Below are positions 3,377-30,043 of a DNA stretch of 64,000 nucleotides, piece after piece. The first letter of the stretch is position 1; every line of letters starts with the position of its first letter. Made by a program: the position numbers and the translations under genes. This DNA comes from a virus. Where the stretch lies: the IMG/VR virus record IMGVR_UViG_3300045049_000339, positions 32,001 through 96,000 of that record, one strand, 5' to 3'. Under the pieces are notes generated by a model, which searched no databases, was not told where the DNA came from, and saw only the letters and a program-made list of their open reading frames with translations.

Positions 3377-4064
3377 GCACATTCTGCTGGAGGGAATCGT
3401 CGGTTCGACCGCGTACGGTTTCGCGACGGCGACCTCCGATATCGACCGGCTCGGAATGTTCGCCGTTCCGACCGTGGAATTCCTGGGACTGGGACGCGTG
3501 CAGGAGTCGGTGGTCCGCACCAATCCGGATCGCACCCTGCACGAGGCGCTCAAGTGGTGCCGTCTCGCAATGCGGTGCAATCCGACCGCTTCAGAGCTGG
3601 TGTGGCTGCCGGACGATCTCTATGAGATTCGCACCGAGCTGGGCGAGCAGCTCATCATGATCCGCGACGCCTTCCTGTCGGCCAAGTACGTCCGCGACGC
3701 TTATCTCGGTTACGCCTCTCAGCAGCTCCGCAAGCTGGAGCTGACCCAGATCAAGATGGACAACCACGAGTCGCCGGAGGTGGTGACCGACCGGCGTCAC
3801 AAGCACGCCCGTCACCTGGTCCGGCTGGTTCAGCAGGGCATCGGTCTGCATACGACCGGTTTTCTGGAGGTGCGCCTGGCCGACCCGCAGCGCGTCATCG
3901 ACGTGGGTGCCGCCGTGGTGGCCGACCCGGAGGCGGGAAAGCGCCTGATCTACCGCGCGGAGAAGGTGTTCGACGCGCCCGGCGTGCTGCCCCAGGAGCC
4001 GGACACGGACGCCATCGAGGGCTGGCTGCTGGACGTCCGACGGACTTTCATGGGCTCCCTGTAG
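3369..4064 (+). CDS. DNA polymerase beta-superfamily nucleotidyltransferase (RlaP/YcgL-like)
   Basis: GIVGSTAYGFATATSDIDRLGMF (hG[GS]...DxD), CNPTASEL, YLGYA, KHARHLVRL motifs. Confidence 0.85.
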   Translation: MTRHILLEGIVGSTAYGFATATSDIDRLGMFAVPTVEFLGLGRVQESVVRTNPDRTLHEALKWCRLAMRCNPTASELVWLPDDLYEIRTELGEQLIMIRDAFLSAKYVRDAYLGYASQQLRKLELTQIKMDNHESPEVVTDRRHKHARHLVRLVQQGIGLHTTGFLEVRLADPQRVIDVGAAVVADPEAGKRLIYRAEKVFDAPGVLPQEPDTDAIEGWLLDVRRTFMGSL

Positions 4065-17622: not shown

Positions 17623-17789
17623 CGGCCGGTACCTGCGGAAACCCTTACTCCGCCTGGGTGCGGGAGGCCAACTCCGATGATCCGCGTGGCGGCTCTCTCG
17701 GTGCAAGATCCCGCACGCTCGTAGTAGGCGAGCCCGGCATTCTCGGACGGAGTGGATGCGTCGGCCGGTTCGAGTCCGGTCATCCCCAG

Positions 17790-17862
17790 GGATGGGGGTC
17801 TGGCTGCGGCCAGCAAATAGGGCGACGGCCCGCGCAGAGGGGTTCGACTCCCCTCCCGTCCA
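17790..17862 (+). ncRNA. tRNA-like element with acceptor stem and T arm but no canonical anticodon arm
   Basis: GGATGGG/CCCGTCC-A acceptor, AGGGG-TTCGACT-CCCCT T arm, two short internal hairpins. Confidence 0.5.
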
Positions 17863-22469: not shown

Positions 22470-22712
22470 GCAGGGTGCGGAAAGCTAACAACTGAATATC
22501 AACATCAGCCGCCGTCGCAACGGTGGCATCAAGCTGAAGCTCTCGCTCAAGCTGAAGCGTCTCGGCAAGGCGTTGATCGAAGTGCGCTGTCCCATCAGGA
22601 GACGTCGGTTCGAATCCGACTCAGGGGACTACGATCCCTGGTGGTGTAGTGGAAGCATTGCCTGGTTTCTCAAATCAAGGCAGCGCCCACCGTGCAACGT
22701 CAGACCGCAGAA
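22470..22712 (+). ncRNA. putative ncRNA with hexamer-repeat tract and circularly permuted tRNA-like domain
   Basis: Phased hexamers at 22490-22554; T arm GTCGG-TTCGAAT-CCGAC, looped acceptor CAGGGGA-CTACGA-TCCCTG, then D arm GTGT-AGTGGAA-GCAT, closed by GCGCTGTC/GGCAGCGC (22584-22686). Ends are approximate. Confidence 0.75.
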
Positions 22713-26639: not shown

Positions 26640-26668
26640 TTGCGCACCGCCGTCGGTGCGCGTAGTGT
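26640..26668 (+). promoter_or_regulatory. promoter for the Y RNA array and Ro60
   Basis: TTGCGC-N17-TAGTGT ending a few nt before the first RNA unit. Confidence 0.6.
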
Positions 26669-26671
26669 TCT

Positions 26672-26831
26672 GGGTGTCGGAGGAACCGGGGTAAGGAACA
26701 CGGTTACTTCATTTGACTGGATATCAAAAGGTTGTGGGTTCGAGTCCCACCGGCTCCACTTGTGGGGCTGTAGCTCAATCGGTAGAGAAAACGTGCCCGA
26801 GTTCACTTTGATATCGGTTCCCTCGACACCC
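26672..26831 (+). ncRNA. Y RNA (YrlA-like) unit 1, permuted tRNA domain
   Basis: Terminal stem GGGTGTCG..GGAACC/GGTTCC..CGACACCC; GGGGTA..CGGTTACTTC and TTTGATATC motifs; order anticodon hairpin (TTTGA-CTGGATA-TCAAA), T arm, looped acceptor, D arm. Confidence 0.85.
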
Positions 26832-26839
26832 ACAGACTT

Positions 26840-26995
26840 CCTGTCAGGGGTACAGGCAACGGCTACTTCGCTTCGAAATGCGGGTATCTGTGCAAACAGA
26901 GTGCGGGTTCGAATCCCGTCCGGCTCTTCGCTGAGTCGGTAGACGAATTGGCAAAGTCACCTACGTATCCGATGCCGACTTAGACATCTGACAGG
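26840..26995 (+). ncRNA. Y RNA (YrlA-like) unit 2, class II (Ser-like) permuted tRNA domain
   Basis: CCTGTCAG/CTGACAGG stem; same conserved motifs; CGA-containing loop, long variable arm CTGT-GCAA-ACAG, T arm, looped acceptor, D arm. Confidence 0.85.
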
Positions 26996-27007
26996 GCTAA
27001 CTTCATA

Positions 27008-27149
27008 TCTGTCCGGGGTACAGGCTGCGGTTACTTCACCTGTTAAGTGAGAGGTCGCAGGTTCGAATCCTGTCGTGGGGTGATAAGCCCCATGTAGCTC
27101 AGTTTGGGAGAGCGCTAACGTTCCCGCTGCCGCTTCGATATCGGACAGA
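27008..27149 (+). ncRNA. Y RNA (YrlA-like) unit 3, Asn(GTT)-like permuted tRNA domain
   Basis: TCTGTCCG/CGGACAGA stem; TCAC-CTGTTAA-GTGA anticodon arm; GCAGG-TTCGAAT-CCTGT; looped acceptor; GCTC..GAGC D arm. Confidence 0.87.
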
Positions 27150-27164
27150 ACACACAAACTTCAT

Positions 27165-27305
27165 AGCTGCCTGGGGTAAAGACAACGGTTACTTCCATGC
27201 GGAGGAGGTAGCGCAGGTTCGAATCCTGCCGGGGGCCTACGGGCTCCTGTCGTCTAGCGGCCCAGGACGCCTACGTTTCCGTTATCGCTTTGATATCAGG
27301 CAGCT
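27165..27305 (+). ncRNA. Y RNA (YrlA-like) unit 4, Glu-like permuted tRNA body
   Basis: AGCTGCCTG/CAGGCAGCT stem; D arm GTCTAGCGGCCCAGGAC typical of tRNA-Glu; hairpin loop ATGCGGA. Confidence 0.85.
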
Positions 27306-27306
27306 T

Positions 27307-27400
27307 GCAGAACCCATCACCGGGGTACTGCTCACGGTTACTTCACCCTTCAAAGATGAAAAAACACCGTGAGCGCTCTGAAATCGGTGGTGGGTTCTGC
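27307..27400 (+). ncRNA. Y RNA unit 5, no tRNA domain
   Basis: GCAGAACCCATCACC/GGTGGTGGGTTCTGC stem with GGGGTA..CGGTTACTTC and CTGAAATC motifs but only a short loop. Confidence 0.75.
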
Positions 27401-27443
27401 TTAATGGCAAGCCCAGTGCCATCAGGAAAAGGAGGAACAGACG

Positions 27444-29126
27444 ATGGCCAAGTTTAACCAGAAGACCCGTACCTGGGAGAACCAGGGAGGTTCGGCCTTT
27501 CCCGCCGCAGGAACGAAGCGGCAGACCACCACGACCACGAACCACACCGGCCGTGCCGTGTGGAACCTGGACGACAAGACCAACCTGTTCTTCCGCGCCA
27601 CGTCCGCCTTCGCCGGTCAGGACACGTACTACGAGAAAGGCGCCAAGCGCGACGCCGAGGCCATCGCCTTGGTCCGAAAGCTCGCTATCGGCGACTGGGA
27701 CTGGACGGCGAAGTTCCTCGTCTGGCTGCGCGCCGAGGGCAACATGCGCACCGCGCCGGTCATGCTGGCTGTCGAGGCAGTTCGTGCACGCCTGGAGAAG
27801 AAGCTGCACCCGGCTGCCGGTGAGATGTCTCACCGTGCGCTCATCGCGGCTGTTCTCCAGCGCGCGGATGAGCCGGGCGAGATGCTCGCCTACTACGAGA
27901 ACGTCGTCGGCCGCACCATGCCGAAGGCGATCAAGCGTGGTATCGGTGACGCGGCCAAGCGCATGTACAACGAGCGCAACTTCCTGCGGTACGACAGTTC
28001 GTCCAAGGCCATCCGTTTCGGCGGCGTCGCCGAGATGGCTCAGATGCCGAAGACGCACGGCTGGCAGTCCGACCTGATCACCTACGCCATTGGTGAGCAG
28101 CACCACCGTGAGCAGGACATCCCTGACACGTTGGCGGCACTTCGTGCACGCAATGAGCTGAACAAGATGGACGCCAGCGACCGTCACGTTTTCGCGAAGA
28201 GCGCACTGGGCGGCCACATCATCAACCGCACCAAGCTGGACCTGGCCATGGCCGGGCAGTGGGAGTGGTTCATGAGTTGGCTCGGTGATGCGAAGGGTGC
28301 CAAGGCCATCACGACGAAGGAGAAGTGGACGTTCGCCGCCCAGCGCATGGGCATCATGGCGGTCGTCCGCAACCTCCGGAACTTCGACGAGGCCGGTCTC
28401 AAGACGGGCGACAGCATCGTCACCGAGATCAGTGGTCGGCTCACGAACGAGGAGCAGATCGCGAAGTCCCGCATGTTCCCGTTCCGGTTCTTCACGGCGC
28501 ACTTGCAGCTCAAGTCCGTCACGTGGGCGGCCGGTCTGGAGGTGGCGCTTCAGCACTCGCTCCAGAACCTTCCGGAGCTGCCGGGCCGGACGCTGATCCT
28601 CGTCGACACCTCGGGGTCGATGCAGCAGAAGCTCTCGGCCAAGTCCGAGATGTCCTACGCCCAGGCCGCCGCACTGTTCGGCTGTGCCCTGAAGATCAAG
28701 AACCCGGACGGGGTCAACCTGTGGGGGTTCGCCGACGGGCAGTTCGAGGCGCAGGCCACCACGGGTCACAGCGTTCTGCGCTGTGCCGAGGAGTTCTGCC
28801 GCCAGAACGGCCTGGTCGGTCACGGAACGCAGATGGAGGCGGCCGTCCGTGCCACGTACGCGGGGCACGACCGAGTCATCATCATCTCCGACATGCAGGC
28901 GTTCCCGACCGGCGGTTACAGCCGGTACGGGTACAGCTACATGACCGGTGACGTCGCTGGGGCTGTTCCGGCGCACATCCCGGTATACGGTTTCAACCTG
29001 GCCAGCGGCTCCACCACACCGCTGGGCAAGGGCAACCGGCACAGCCTTGGTGGCCTCTCGGATGTGACGTTCAAGCTGATCCCTCAGCTTGAGAAGGTCG
29101 GCCGGGGTTCGTGGCCCTGGGAGTAA
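27444..29126 (+). CDS. rsr: Ro60/Rsr ortholog (TROVE + vWA domains)
   Basis: TYYE, WLRAEGNMRTAP, QRADEPGE, PKAIKRGI, MAVVRNLRNFDEAG, SRMFPFRF, LILVDTSGSM, IIISDMQ; adjacent Y RNA-like repeats. Confidence 0.92.
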   Translation: MAKFNQKTRTWENQGGSAFPAAGTKRQTTTTTNHTGRAVWNLDDKTNLFFRATSAFAGQDTYYEKGAKRDAEAIALVRKLAIGDWDWTAKFLVWLRAEGNMRTAPVMLAVEAVRARLEKKLHPAAGEMSHRALIAAVLQRADEPGEMLAYYENVVGRTMPKAIKRGIGDAAKRMYNERNFLRYDSSSKAIRFGGVAEMAQMPKTHGWQSDLITYAIGEQHHREQDIPDTLAALRARNELNKMDASDRHVFAKSALGGHIINRTKLDLAMAGQWEWFMSWLGDAKGAKAITTKEKWTFAAQRMGIMAVVRNLRNFDEAGLKTGDSIVTEISGRLTNEEQIAKSRMFPFRFFTAHLQLKSVTWAAGLEVALQHSLQNLPELPGRTLILVDTSGSMQQKLSAKSEMSYAQAAALFGCALKIKNPDGVNLWGFADGQFEAQATTGHSVLRCAEEFCRQNGLVGHGTQMEAAVRATYAGHDRVIIISDMQAFPTGGYSRYGYSYMTGDVAGAVPAHIPVYGFNLASGSTTPLGKGNRHSLGGLSDVTFKLIPQLEKVGRGSWPWE

Positions 29127-29140
29127 TCCCAGAAACACGA

Positions 29141-29176
29141 AAAGAGCCCCCGCCTCGAAAGAGGCGGGGGCTCTTT
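29141..29176. terminator. bidirectional terminator between the convergent genome arms
   Basis: AAAGAGCCCCCGCCTC-GAAA-GAGGCGGGGGCTCTTT perfect hairpin. Confidence 0.9.
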
Positions 29177-29185
29177 GTGCACGAA

Positions 29186-30043
29186 TTACTTGGCTGCGTC
29201 CAGCGCGTGACCCATGGCCTGGAGAATGGCTGGGACCAGGACCGGAGTGAGCTGCGCGGCGATGGCGGCCACCTGCGCGTCGGTCAGCTTCGGCGCGGCG
29301 ACGGCGCCGACGGCCACCTTGATGGCGTCCACCTCCGTCTTCAGCGCCGCCAGCGCGGCAGCGCTCGCCTTGGCGTCGTTGGCGATGTTCTGGACGGTCT
29401 GGTGCACGTCCGGCGAGTCGCCCGGACCCTTGTAGGCCCAGACATCAAGTGGAGTAGGCAAGTCAGTTCCTCCAGAAGAGTTGGAATTCGGGTACTGACC
29501 GAAGTCAGCCGTCTCGGAGTAGTCGACGTCGGCGTTGCCTCCGAAGAGGGTGTTCGCCTCCTGGTGAATGGTGGCGTGGGAATCCCACACGCCGCCGCTC
29601 CATGCGACGGTCTGCCACAGGTACTTGTACCCGGCGGCAGCGGCTCCGGCAATGACGTGCAGGCCGCCATACACGCCGACGTGGCCCTGTCCGAGGACGT
29701 TGGCGGCGCCAGCGAAATACTGCTCCACGCTGGCCCAGTCGGTGTCGGTGTCGACAGCGAAATGGATGACAGCGGTGGCGGGAAGACCGACTGCGGCGCG
29801 CTGTTCGCTGGCCGTACGGGCGTCCGCCTGACCGGCCGCGTAACCGGCCAGGGCGCGTGTCGTGGTGGTCTCCCACACGCCGACGATGGCGAGCCCGGCG
29901 GCGATGTACTCCGCGACGAGAGCGTGCGTCAGGTTCTTGCTGGGGTCCTCGGAGTAGTACCCGGCCGCCCAGTGCGCACCGGCCGCCTTGGCTTCAGCGG
30001 CCGTGGGCTTGGTCCAGGCGAAGTCAATTCCCATCACCGGCAT
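29186..30043 (-). CDS. endolysin, DUF1906/GH25-like glycoside hydrolase
   Basis: GIDFAW, SKNLT, VWET, IHFAVD, GVYGG, WQTVAWSGG, DVD motifs; C-terminal helical tail. Confidence 0.85.
   Translation of the reverse strand: MPVMGIDFAWTKPTAAEAKAAGAHWAAGYYSEDPSKNLTHALVAEYIAAGLAIVGVWETTTTRALAGYAAGQADARTASEQRAAVGLPATAVIHFAVDTDTDWASVEQYFAGAANVLGQGHVGVYGGLHVIAGAAAAGYKYLWQTVAWSGGVWDSHATIHQEANTLFGGNADVDYSETADFGQYPNSNSSGGTDLPTPLDVWAYKGPGDSPDVHQTVQNIANDAKASAAALAALKTEVDAIKVAVGAVAAPKLTDAQVAAIAAQLTPVLVPAILQAMGHALDAAK

What the first reader, a model, noticed from the sequence alone, without database searches (positions are those of the whole stretch)
26640..29126. Tandem array of five Y-RNA-like units feeding a phage Ro60
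Seen: five back-to-back units (26672-26831, 26840-26995, 27008-27149, 27165-27305, 27307-27400). Each has a different but self-complementary terminal stem and shares the motifs GGGGTA-N6-7-CGG(T/C)TACTTC and (T/C)T(T/C/A)GA(T/C/A)ATC. They follow one promoter and precede a TROVE-vWA gene. Known: Ro60/Rsr with adjacent YrlA/YrlB RNAs occurs in bacteria and some actinophages, typically with one or two RNAs. Inference: a five-member cassette with a constant protein-binding handle and variable cargo is unusual and resembles a modular RNA array processed from one transcript.
Basis: partly seen in the sequence, partly recalled or inferred. Interest (0 to 1): 0.8.

Follow-up and report, generated by a model that had tools for sequence, protein, structure and literature searches.

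The report
Phage Ro60 operon with five Y RNAs
An uncultured actinophage carries five small structured RNAs in a row (four with a rearranged tRNA look-alike, one minimal) directly in front of its Ro60 gene; this is the known Ro60/Y-RNA partnership, and rows of three to five such RNAs are normal, though unannotated, in related phages.

Summary
Five back-to-back units lie at the stated coordinates. Their shared box CGGYTACTTC occurs 5 times in 64 kb, all here and on one strand (0.17 expected). A TROVE+vWA Ro60 gene follows.

Units 1-4 are YrlA-type Y RNAs. Each has a closing stem, a conserved handle, a second covarying helix, then T arm, a closed 7-8 bp acceptor-like stem and a D arm. Unit 5 is a minimal, YrlB-like version without the tRNA-like part. 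The structure is supported by covariation across 31 units from 14 phage loci. It is also supported by the tRNA Levitt pair 15:48, which covaries in 28 of 29 long units.

The claim that five units is unusual does not hold. All 13 related actinophage Ro60 loci I examined carry 3-5 such units. GiJojo, pSt2308 and Alone3 each have five handle boxes; I folded only GiJojo's five as units. BRock, VanLee, Rabbitrun and Atuin have four. What stands out here is four full tRNA-like units and a diverged handle (GGGGUA in place of GNGCGNAG), which keeps the Rfam YrlA scores below threshold.

Earlier notes of this scan report comparable arrays next to Ro60-like genes on other phage DNA.

Verdict: a new member of a known kind, of modest interest.

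The parts
26640..26668 (+). Candidate promoter: TTGCGC (26640-26645), 17-nt spacer, TAGTGT (26663-26668). The spacer holds a perfect 8-bp palindrome GCGCACCG/CGGTGCGC (26642-26649 / 26654-26661).
   Evidence: Read from the sequence. The same GCTTG...GTAGTGT arrangement is conserved in front of the array in L004. The consensus scan did not call it, so it is a candidate only.
26672..26831 (+). Unit 1, long (YrlA-like). It has an 18-nt closing stem, the handle GGGGUAAGGAACACGGUUACUUC, a hairpin UUUGA-CUGGAUA-UCAAA, a T arm, a 7(+1)-bp closed acceptor-like stem, a D arm, and the 3' box UUUGAUAUC.
   Evidence: R1 119.5 bits. Rfam YrlA 28.1 bits and tRNA 31.2 bits. Fold z = -3.2. Inverted repeat I1. 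ARAGORN's 'tRNA-SeC' at 26682-26759 is this unit.
26840..26995 (+). Unit 2, long (YrlA-like). Before the T arm it has an anticodon-arm-like hairpin with an 8-nt loop and an extra 5-bp hairpin closed by a GCAA tetraloop. The 3' box is UUAGACAUC.
   Evidence: R1 126.1 bits. Rfam YrlA 20.4 bits. Fold z = -2.6. Hairpins read.
27008..27149 (+). Unit 3, long (YrlA-like). Its hairpin UUCAC-CUGUUAA-GUGAG followed by AGGUC has the dimensions of an anticodon arm and variable loop. The acceptor-like stem is 8 bp.
   Evidence: R1 136.7 bits. Rfam YrlA 35.2 bits, E 9e-6, over model positions 24-84. Fold z = -2.65.
27165..27305 (+). Unit 4, long (YrlA-like). Its D arm is CGUCUAGCGGCCCAGGACG, joined to the acceptor-like stem by UC rather than UA. 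The acceptor-like stem is 8 bp and closed by UACG.
   Evidence: R1 129.2 bits. Rfam YrlA 16.7 bits. Fold z = -3.15. D arm listed.
27307..27400 (+). Unit 5, short (YrlB-like mini unit). It has a 16-17 bp closing stem, the same handle and a 9-10 bp second helix. It has no T arm, acceptor-like stem or D arm.
   Evidence: R1 39.1 bits over the whole model with the middle deleted. Fold z = -8.0. The orthologous short unit in L004 shows many compensatory changes in the closing stem.
26832..27306 (+). Short spacers between units: ACAGACTT (26832-26839), GCTAACTTCATA (26996-27007), ACACACAAACTTCAT (27150-27164) and T (27306). A recurring AACUUCAU(A) motif may mark a processing site.
   Evidence: Sequence (family D2). 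The same motif lies between units in L004, L005 and Atuin. A processing role is inferred.
27430..27435 (+). Shine-Dalgarno AGGAGG, 8 nt before the Ro60 start codon.
   Evidence: Sequence.
27444..29126 (+). Ro60/Rsr orthologue, 560 aa: TROVE ring plus a vWA domain with the MIDAS motif DTSGS.
   Evidence: Pfam TROVE E 6e-11 and VWA_2 E 9.5e-4, below its cut-off. phrog_850 E 8e-43. PDB 9KOP/9L5Y phiLo Ro60 E 2.5e-22 and Xenopus Ro60 1YVP E 2.4e-4. Translation.
29141..29176 (.). 16-bp GC-rich hairpin flanked by T/A runs. It is a two-way terminator between Ro60 and the convergent endolysin-like gene (29186-30043, minus strand).
   Evidence: Terminator scan. Pfam Rv2525c-like and PHROG endolysin for the neighbouring gene.

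Best explanation
This is a phage Ro60 operon. A promoter-like site at about 26640-26668 probably drives one transcript of about 2.5 kb. It carries five Y RNAs and then the Ro60 mRNA, and ends at the hairpin at 29141-29176.

Host RNases most likely cut the precursor in the short single-stranded spacers, which share an AACUUCAU motif.

Each released RNA is closed by its own stem. Each presents the same docking site for the phage Ro60: an internal loop formed by GGGGUA on the 5' side and YUNGAYAUC on the 3' side, followed by a second helix with a fixed CGG/CCG and a YUAC box.

In units 1-4 the other end of the RNA is a rearranged tRNA look-alike, in the order T arm, closed 7-8 bp acceptor-like stem, D arm. 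It folds into the tRNA L-shape. By analogy with bacterial YrlA and Deinococcus Yrn1, it tethers Ro60 to a tRNA-binding or RNA-degrading partner such as host PNPase. Unit 5 is a minimal version, with handle only.

The anatomy, conservation and covariation are shown here. Ro60 binding, processing, and the partner recruited by the tRNA-like end are inferred from the published family.
For: **Motif statistics.** Five matches to the core box against 0.17 expected.

**Structure**
- RNAalifold on an unfitted MAFFT alignment of 7 long units recovers closing stem, helix 2, T arm, acceptor-like stem and D arm. 23 of 38 pairs show compensatory changes.
- On 31 units from 14 loci, 90% of cells are paired against 35-44% when partners are slid. 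The covariation score is 0.614 against 0.12 or less.
- The tertiary Levitt pair is not part of the model, yet it covaries: G15:C48 in 14 units, A15:U48 in 14, one exception.
- T loops read UUCRANU and D loops carry GG.
- The acceptor-like stem is 7-8 bp in 25 of 29 long units.

**Family links**
- The Rfam YrlA model hits all four long units in the T-acceptor-D region, with E down to 9e-6.
- The array and Ro60 gene are syntenic in the closest relative L004, which has 61% Ro60 identity and 3 long + 1 short units.
- Handle-bearing units cluster beside Ro60 in all 13 relatives.
- The handle variant is shared by all units of a genome but differs between genomes, as expected if it co-evolves with the cognate Ro60.

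**Transcription unit**
- G+C falls from 0.62-0.70 in the flanking genes to 0.53-0.56 in the array.
- No terminator-like site on the + strand lies between the array and Ro60.

**Literature**
- YrlA RNAs lie within 4 kb of Ro60, on the same strand, in 254 bacteria and 22 phages (PMC4201824).
- Phage phiLo Ro60 binds two upstream Y-like RNAs and forms a complex with host PNPase in vitro (PMC12135203).
Against: - No expression, processing or binding data exist for this uncultured phage.
- All Rfam YrlA scores (16.7-35.2 bits) are far below the gathering score of 69.
- The published Ro60-contact motif GNCGAAN0-1G is absent. These units have GGGGUA(A/C) at that position.
- The promoter is only a candidate.
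- The 31-unit alignment was fitted to my own model, which inflates pair counts. The unfitted 7-unit alignment and the Levitt pair are the independent checks.
Confidence: 0.85

Rival explanations
1. The array is mainly a cis-acting leader of the Ro60 mRNA. Ro60 binds the repeated handles on its own transcript and so controls its own translation or stability. No free RNAs with a function in trans are needed.
For: The units are directly upstream of the Ro60 gene and probably co-transcribed with it, with no terminator between them. The last unit ends 43 nt before the start codon.
Against: In Atuin the units lie downstream of Ro60 with a tRNA gene among them. In L007 they lie about 3 kb upstream. 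In the BRock group they follow on from a tRNA cluster. Position relative to the start codon is therefore not conserved. A leader would not need a conserved tRNA-like L-shape with a covarying Levitt pair. Characterised relatives are free RNAs (PMC4201824).
Confidence: 0.05
2. The units are decayed or rearranged tRNA genes left over from the phage's tRNA cluster. They have no link to Ro60.
For: T and D arms are tRNA-like. Rfam tRNA scores 31.2 bits on unit 1 and ARAGORN calls a 'tRNA-SeC' there. The region lies near eight real tRNA genes. GenBank records annotate some related units as tRNAs.
Against: The arm order is T, acceptor-like stem, D, and the acceptor-like stem is closed by a loop. A non-tRNA handle and closing stem are conserved and covary. 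The handle box clusters only beside Ro60 in 14 of 14 loci. Decaying genes would not keep compensatory changes.
Confidence: 0.03
3. The long units are precursors of working split tRNAs. RNase P cuts the closed acceptor loop, CCA is added, and the two base-paired halves are charged and used in translation or as decoys. Ro60 acts only as a chaperone.
For: The acceptor-like stem has the 7 bp of a tRNA in most units, as in M. smegmatis YrlA, which RNase P cleaves and which receives CCA in vivo (PMC4201824). About half of the long units in the family carry a 5-bp/7-nt hairpin with U at loop position 2 and a purine at position 6, followed by an AGGUC-like variable loop.
Against: The anticodon-like loop is not conserved between orthologous units: unit 1 has CUGGAUA and its L004 counterpart has AUGAUAA. 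It is missing or irregular in about half of the family, including unit 2 here. An extra helix sits at the D/anticodon junction. No charging of any YrlA has been reported (PMC4201824).
Confidence: 0.04

Closest known systems
YrlA / YrlB Y RNAs with Rsr (Ro60) of Salmonella Typhimurium and Mycobacterium smegmatis, and the mycobacteriophage YrlA-like RNAs (Chen et al. 2014, PMC4201824; Rfam RF02553; structure in bioRxiv 10.1101/312249)
   Same: - Encoded next to Ro60 on the same strand.
- Two-module design: a stem with the Ro60 site plus a tRNA-like domain in the order T arm, closed acceptor-like stem, D arm.
- Conserved YUAY box.
- Covarying Levitt pair.
- A 7-bp acceptor-like stem, as in M. smegmatis.
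- A short partner RNA alongside the long one.
   Different: - Five RNAs in one row, four of them long, instead of one long plus one short.
- The handle reads GGGGUA(A/C), not GNCGAAN0-1G.
- Scores fall below the Rfam threshold.
- The hairpin that Chen et al. call 'V' here often has anticodon-arm dimensions.
Thermus phage phiLo Ro60 with Yrl1 and Yrl2 (PMC12135203; PDB 9KOP, 9L5Y)
   Same: - A phage-encoded Ro60, and the best solved match to this protein (E 2.5e-22).
- Y-like RNAs lie directly upstream of the gene.
- It is the phage case in which Ro60 binding and a Ro60-RNA-PNPase complex were shown in vitro.
   Different: phiLo has two RNAs, described as stem-bulge-stem with a CGAA motif. The paper describes no tRNA-like module. 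Here there are five RNAs, four with a tRNA-like module and none with CGAA.
Unannotated arrays next to the 'Ro-like RNA binding protein' genes of published actinophages (Streptomyces phages GiJojo, pSt2308, Alone3, BRock, Satis, Kela; Gordonia phages VanLee, Rabbitrun; Arthrobacter phage Atuin)
   Same: The same TACTTC box, closing stems and mix of long and short units, with 3-5 handle boxes per locus and short spacers.
   Different: - These phages use other handle variants, mostly GAUGCGNAG or GGUGCGMAG.
- They have two or three long units rather than four.
- Ro60 identity to the window protein is 33-39%.
Deinococcus radiodurans Rsr with Yrn1/Yrn2 and two further small RNAs upstream of rsr (Chen et al. 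2000, 2013, as summarised in PMC4201824)
   Same: Several small RNAs are encoded beside Ro60. A Y RNA tethers Ro60 to PNPase.
   Different: Yrn1 has a metazoan-like Ro60 helix and a differently oriented partial tRNA mimic. It is regarded as an independent lineage (PMC4201824).

Membership tests
YrlA (Rfam RF02553; Chen et al. 2014) | Encoded within 4 kb of a Ro60 orthologue, on the same strand | tested here: met
   The units end 43-770 nt upstream of the TROVE+vWA gene at 27444-29126, on the same strand.
YrlA (Rfam RF02553; Chen et al. 2014) | tRNA-like domain in the order T arm, closed acceptor-like stem-loop, D arm | tested here: met
   Units 1-4 have it: Rfam hits over model positions 24-84, RNAalifold, covariation. 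Unit 5 lacks it, so it is YrlB-like rather than YrlA-like.
YrlA (Rfam RF02553; Chen et al. 2014) | Nucleotides for tRNA tertiary contacts: T loop, G18 G19, the U8 A9 link, and a covarying Levitt pair 15:48 | tested here: met
   The T loop is UUCGARU in all four long units and GG is present in all D loops. The link is UA in three units and UC in unit 4. The Levitt pair is A:U in units 1-2 and G:C in units 3-4. Across the family 28 of 29 units are consistent.
YrlA (Rfam RF02553; Chen et al. 2014) | GNCGAAN0-1G motif near the 5' end (proposed Ro60 contact) | tested here: not met
   All five units have GGGGUA(A/C) at that position. Relatives have GGUGCGAAG or GAUGCGNAG, some with the CGAA core. 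This is a diverged variant at the same place, not the literal motif.
YrlA (Rfam RF02553; Chen et al. 2014) | Conserved YUAY before the variable region | tested here: met
   UUAC or CUAC in all five units, as part of the CGGYTACTTC box.
YrlA (Rfam RF02553; Chen et al. 2014) | Score at or above the Rfam gathering threshold (69 bits) | tested here: not met
   Scores are 35.2, 28.1, 20.4 and 16.7 bits. Related phage units also fall below it, at 41.4 bits or less.
Y RNA in the functional sense | Bound by Ro60 in the cell | not testable with these tools
   This needs immunoprecipitation or gel shifts. The only support here is that the handle travels with Ro60 and is genome-specific.
Ro60 / Rsr (TROVE + vWA) | TROVE HEAT-repeat ring followed by a vWA domain with a MIDAS motif | tested here: met
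   Pfam TROVE E 6e-11 (only residues 300-353 aligned) and VWA_2 below its cut-off. phrog_850 covers residues 17-550. PDB 9KOP E 2.5e-22. DTSGS is present. I did not predict a structure.
Canonical tRNA gene | Open acceptor stem formed by the 5' and 3' ends; arm order D, anticodon, T | tested here: not met
   The arm order is permuted and the acceptor-like stem is closed by a 4-6 nt loop. The ARAGORN and Rfam tRNA calls on unit 1 are marginal.

The most novel reading that the evidence does not exclude
Actinophages deliberately field a panel of Ro60-tethered tRNA mimics. Each unit has a different acceptor-like stem, D arm and anticodon-arm-like hairpin. [quoted passage not shown] They then act as decoys or sensors for host tRNA-targeting defences, or as adaptors that point Ro60/PNPase at different targets. 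On this reading the number and variety of units are the functional point, not an accident of duplication.
Probability: 0.1. Interest if true: 0.75.

Novelty: new member of a known kind. Interest (0 to 1): 0.3.

Why it matters
Ro60 and its Y RNAs are conserved from bacteria to humans, where Ro60 is a lupus and Sjögren autoantigen. What the tRNA-like end of bacterial Y RNAs binds is still unknown.

This locus adds little on its own. The survey around it shows three things:
- Actinophage Ro60 genes regularly come with 3-5 Y RNAs in a row.
- The handle changes from phage to phage, apparently together with the protein.
- Public annotation misses these RNAs or calls them tRNAs.

That gives a ready set of natural handle variants for mapping Ro60-RNA recognition. 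It is also a practical warning for tRNA counts in phage genomes.

Tried and rejected
- **Megablast against GenBank phages.** A search with the whole locus gave no match, so there is no close sequenced relative.
- **Exact 5' motif across IMG/VR.** 36 contigs had a single match each. Only the L004 contig is a known relative and I did not follow up the rest.
- **Reaching the validated M. smegmatis YrlA.** I searched genome contigs with the published Northern probe sequence. The result was no match, then one chance hit in a Chitinophagaceae MAG. I therefore could not score the validated RNA with my model.
- **A simple scan for closing stems around each box.** Random positions in these GC-rich loci give 7-8 bp stems just as often. 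I do not count those stems as evidence and rely on covariation instead.
- **Supplementary tables of Chen et al. 2014.** They would give the published number of YrlAs per phage, but they are not held. The 2020 Annual Review on bacterial Ro60 is not held either.
- **Reading the pre-T hairpin as a true anticodon arm in every unit.** Rejected as a general rule, because only about half of 29 long units have the 5-bp/7-nt geometry.
Full report
**What the window is.** The window is part of a 107.7-kb IMG/VR virus record estimated to be 99% complete. It has high G+C, eight tRNA genes upstream of the finding, HNH endonucleases and an endolysin-like gene. The closest sequenced phages, judged by the Ro60 protein, are Streptomyces, Gordonia and Arthrobacter phages at 33-39% identity. 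One uncultured contig, L004, reaches 61%. Megablast finds no close DNA relative in GenBank phages.

**The observation.**
- The 23-nt motif GGGGTA-N7-CGGYTACTTC occurs five times, spaced 149-168 nt apart.
- Its 10-nt core occurs 5 times in 64 kb, all here and on the + strand, against 0.17 expected. None of 100 shuffles reached 5.
- The 3' box YTNGAYATC is present in units 1-4. Unit 5 has CTGAAATC.
- Every unit is closed by its own inverted repeat and folds better than shuffled copies, with z from -2.6 to -8.0.
- G+C drops from 0.62-0.70 in the flanking genes to 0.53-0.56 across the array.

**Anatomy.** I aligned the four long units with the three long units of L004 and wrote down a structure. 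RNAalifold on the same unfitted alignment predicts the same helices, and 23 of 38 pairs keep pairing through changes on both sides. From 5' to 3' each long unit has:
1. a closing stem of 9-18 bp whose sequence differs between units;
2. the conserved GGGGUA, facing GAYAUC on the 3' side in an imperfect helix (G-C, G-U, G.A, G-U or G-C, U-A, A.G);
3. a second helix of about 12 positions, whose outer pairs covary and whose inner CGG/CCG and AC/GU are fixed;
4. the box UUACUUC;
5. a variable hairpin;
6. a T arm with loop UUCGARU;
7. an acceptor-like stem of 7-8 bp closed by a 4-6 nt loop;
8. the U-A link and a D arm with GG;
9. a conserved ACGU leading back into the second helix.

Unit 5 keeps items 1-5 only.

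**Model and covariation.** A covariance model built from the seven long units (R1) scores the window's long units at 119-137 bits and unit 5 at 39 bits. It finds no further copy in the whole 107.7-kb genome. On 31 units collected from 14 loci, 90% of cells form pairs against 35-44% when the 3' partners are slid. The covariation score is 0.614 against 0.12 or less. That alignment was fitted to the model, so one search is the independent check.

**Tertiary pair.** A second independent check is the tRNA Levitt pair, which the model does not encode. Position 15 of the D loop and the base just before the T stem are G:C in 14 units, A:U in 14 and mismatched in one. Within the window, units 1-2 have A:U and units 3-4 have G:C. 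Chen et al. describe exactly this covariation for YrlA (PMC4201824).

**Identity.**
- The gene at 27444-29126 is a Ro60/Rsr orthologue. It matches TROVE, phrog_850 over nearly its full length, the solved phiLo Ro60 at E 2.5e-22 and Xenopus Ro60 at E 2.4e-4. The MIDAS motif DTSGS is present.
- The Rfam YrlA model hits all four long units over the T-acceptor-D core (35.2, 28.1, 20.4 and 16.7 bits). All are below the gathering score of 69.
- The published 5' motif GNCGAAN0-1G is not present literally. Related phages have GGUGCGAAG or GAUGCGNAG at this place, and the window and L004 have GG(G/U)GUA.

I therefore call the units YrlA-like and YrlB-like Y RNAs with a diverged handle. They are not members of RF02553 as Rfam defines it.

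**The variable hairpin.** Other first-stage notes on this stretch read it as a full anticodon arm.
- In units 3 and 4 it has exactly those dimensions: a 5-bp stem whose 5' strand is the UUC of the conserved box, and a 7-nt loop with U at position 2 and a purine at position 6. A 4-5 nt stretch such as AGGUC follows, before the T stem.
- Unit 1 is shifted by four bases.
- Unit 2 has an 8-nt loop plus an extra GCAA-capped hairpin.
- Across 29 long units about half have the canonical geometry.
- The loop sequence differs between orthologous units of the window and L004.

This fits the published idea that YrlA arose from a dimeric tRNA transcript (bioRxiv 10.1101/312249). It does not show that the hairpin works as an anticodon arm. 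Chen et al. already describe this stem-loop as the less-conserved 'V' arm.

**Is five unusual?** No. The TACTTC box is clustered beside the Ro60 gene in every relative examined.

| Locus | Clustered TACTTC boxes |
|---|---|
| Window | 5 |
| GiJojo, pSt2308, Alone3 | 5 each |
| L004, BRock, VanLee, Rabbitrun, Atuin | 4 each |
| L005, L006, L007, Satis, Kela | 3 each |

About 0.2 boxes are expected by chance in 700 nt.

- Folding GiJojo's five segments shows five closed units, two long and three short, all with that phage's own handle GAUGCGNAG ... CUUUUCUAG. BRock has two long and two short units.
- I did not fold the pSt2308 and Alone3 segments. Their count of five rests on the handle-plus-box listing.
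- By the covariance model the window has the most long units, four. L004, L005 and Atuin have three and the rest have two.
- GenBank annotates none of these RNAs as Y RNAs. Three are annotated as tRNAs.
- The papers I could search describe one or two Y RNAs per phage and do not mention such rows.
- Earlier notes of this scan report comparable arrays of 3 to about 11 units beside Ro60-like genes in other phages. I did not check those.

**Transcription and processing (inferred).**
- TTGCGC-N17-TAGTGT at 26640-26668 is conserved in L004. It would start transcription at about the first base of unit 1.
- The spacers are 8, 12, 15 and 1 nt, too short for promoters.
- No terminator-like site on the + strand lies before the Ro60 gene, and a strong two-way terminator follows it.
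- The spacers share AACUUCAU(A), which recurs between units in L004, L005 and Atuin. It is a plausible endonuclease site.
- The 7-bp acceptor-like stem matches M. smegmatis YrlA, which RNase P cleaves and which then receives CCA (PMC4201824). The same may happen here.

**Function.** The best-supported reading comes from the family. Ro60 binds the handle, and the tRNA-like end recruits a partner. PNPase is the documented one in Deinococcus and Salmonella, and phage phiLo Ro60 forms such a complex in vitro (PMC4201824, PMC12135203). Why a phage needs four or five versions is open. Possible reasons are dosage, different partners, or decoys for tRNA-directed host enzymes. I give the last, most novel reading about 10%.

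**Verdict.** The locus is an ordinary example of a known system, with a diverged handle and one more long unit than its relatives. The more useful result is the general one: multi-unit Y RNA rows are the rule in actinophage Ro60 loci, and public annotation misses them.

Noticed in passing
window 22596-22680: A further rearranged tRNA look-alike: T arm GTCGG-TTCGAAT-CCGAC, a closed stem, then a D-arm-like GGTGTAGTGGAAGCA. It has no TACTTC handle and lies about 4 kb from the Ro60 array. Model R1 hits it only partially (17.8 bits over positions 50-105).
   Followed up: partly
window 17760-17860: Two orphan T-arm-like hairpins (GGCCGGTTCGAGTCCGGTC and GAGGGGTTCGACTCCCCTC) lie between tRNA-Pro and tRNA-Leu. 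Neither ARAGORN nor Rfam calls them.
   Followed up: no
L011:3596-3667 (VanLee), L001:2769-2843 (GiJojo), L014:3774-3847 (Alone3); window 26682-26759: GenBank tRNA annotations overlap YrlA-like units found by model R1: tRNA-Arg(tct) in VanLee, tRNA-Arg(cct) in GiJojo and tRNA-Ser(gct) in Alone3. ARAGORN likewise calls unit 1 of the window a 'tRNA-SeC(tca)'. These are probably miscalled Y RNAs and inflate phage tRNA counts.
   Followed up: partly
window 26832-26839, 26996-27007, 27150-27164; also L004:3545-3555, 3697-3708; L005:3655-3667; L012:5929-5933: A conserved spacer motif, AACUUCAU(A) (ACUUGA in the BRock-type phages), sits just before the closing stem of the next unit across distant phages. 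It may be a processing signal.
   Followed up: partly
window 26642-26661; L009:3370-3387: The spacer of the candidate promoter holds a perfect palindrome, GCGCACCG-N4-CGGTGCGC. Satis has a similar palindrome (GATCCC...GGGATC) between its TTGCGA and TAATGT hexamers. It could be an operator, or the terminator hairpin of the upstream gene.
   Followed up: no
L013:3118-3870 (Streptomyces phage Kela): A gene annotated as an RNA ligase lies between the Y-RNA-like units and the Ro60 gene. This echoes published cases of Rsr/YrlA beside RtcB or other RNA ligases.
   Followed up: no
window 26720-26728 and 26807-26815: In unit 1 the hairpin loop and 3' strand, GAUAUCAAA, are perfectly complementary to the 3' handle box UUUGAUAUC, so an alternative fold is possible. 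GAUAUC is also self-complementary and is present in units 1, 3 and 4.
   Followed up: no
window units versus L004 units: The units look mosaic between the two phages. L004 unit 3 has the closing stem of window unit 4 (CUGCCUGG...CAGGCAG) but the D arm of window unit 3. This suggests recombination among units.
   Followed up: no
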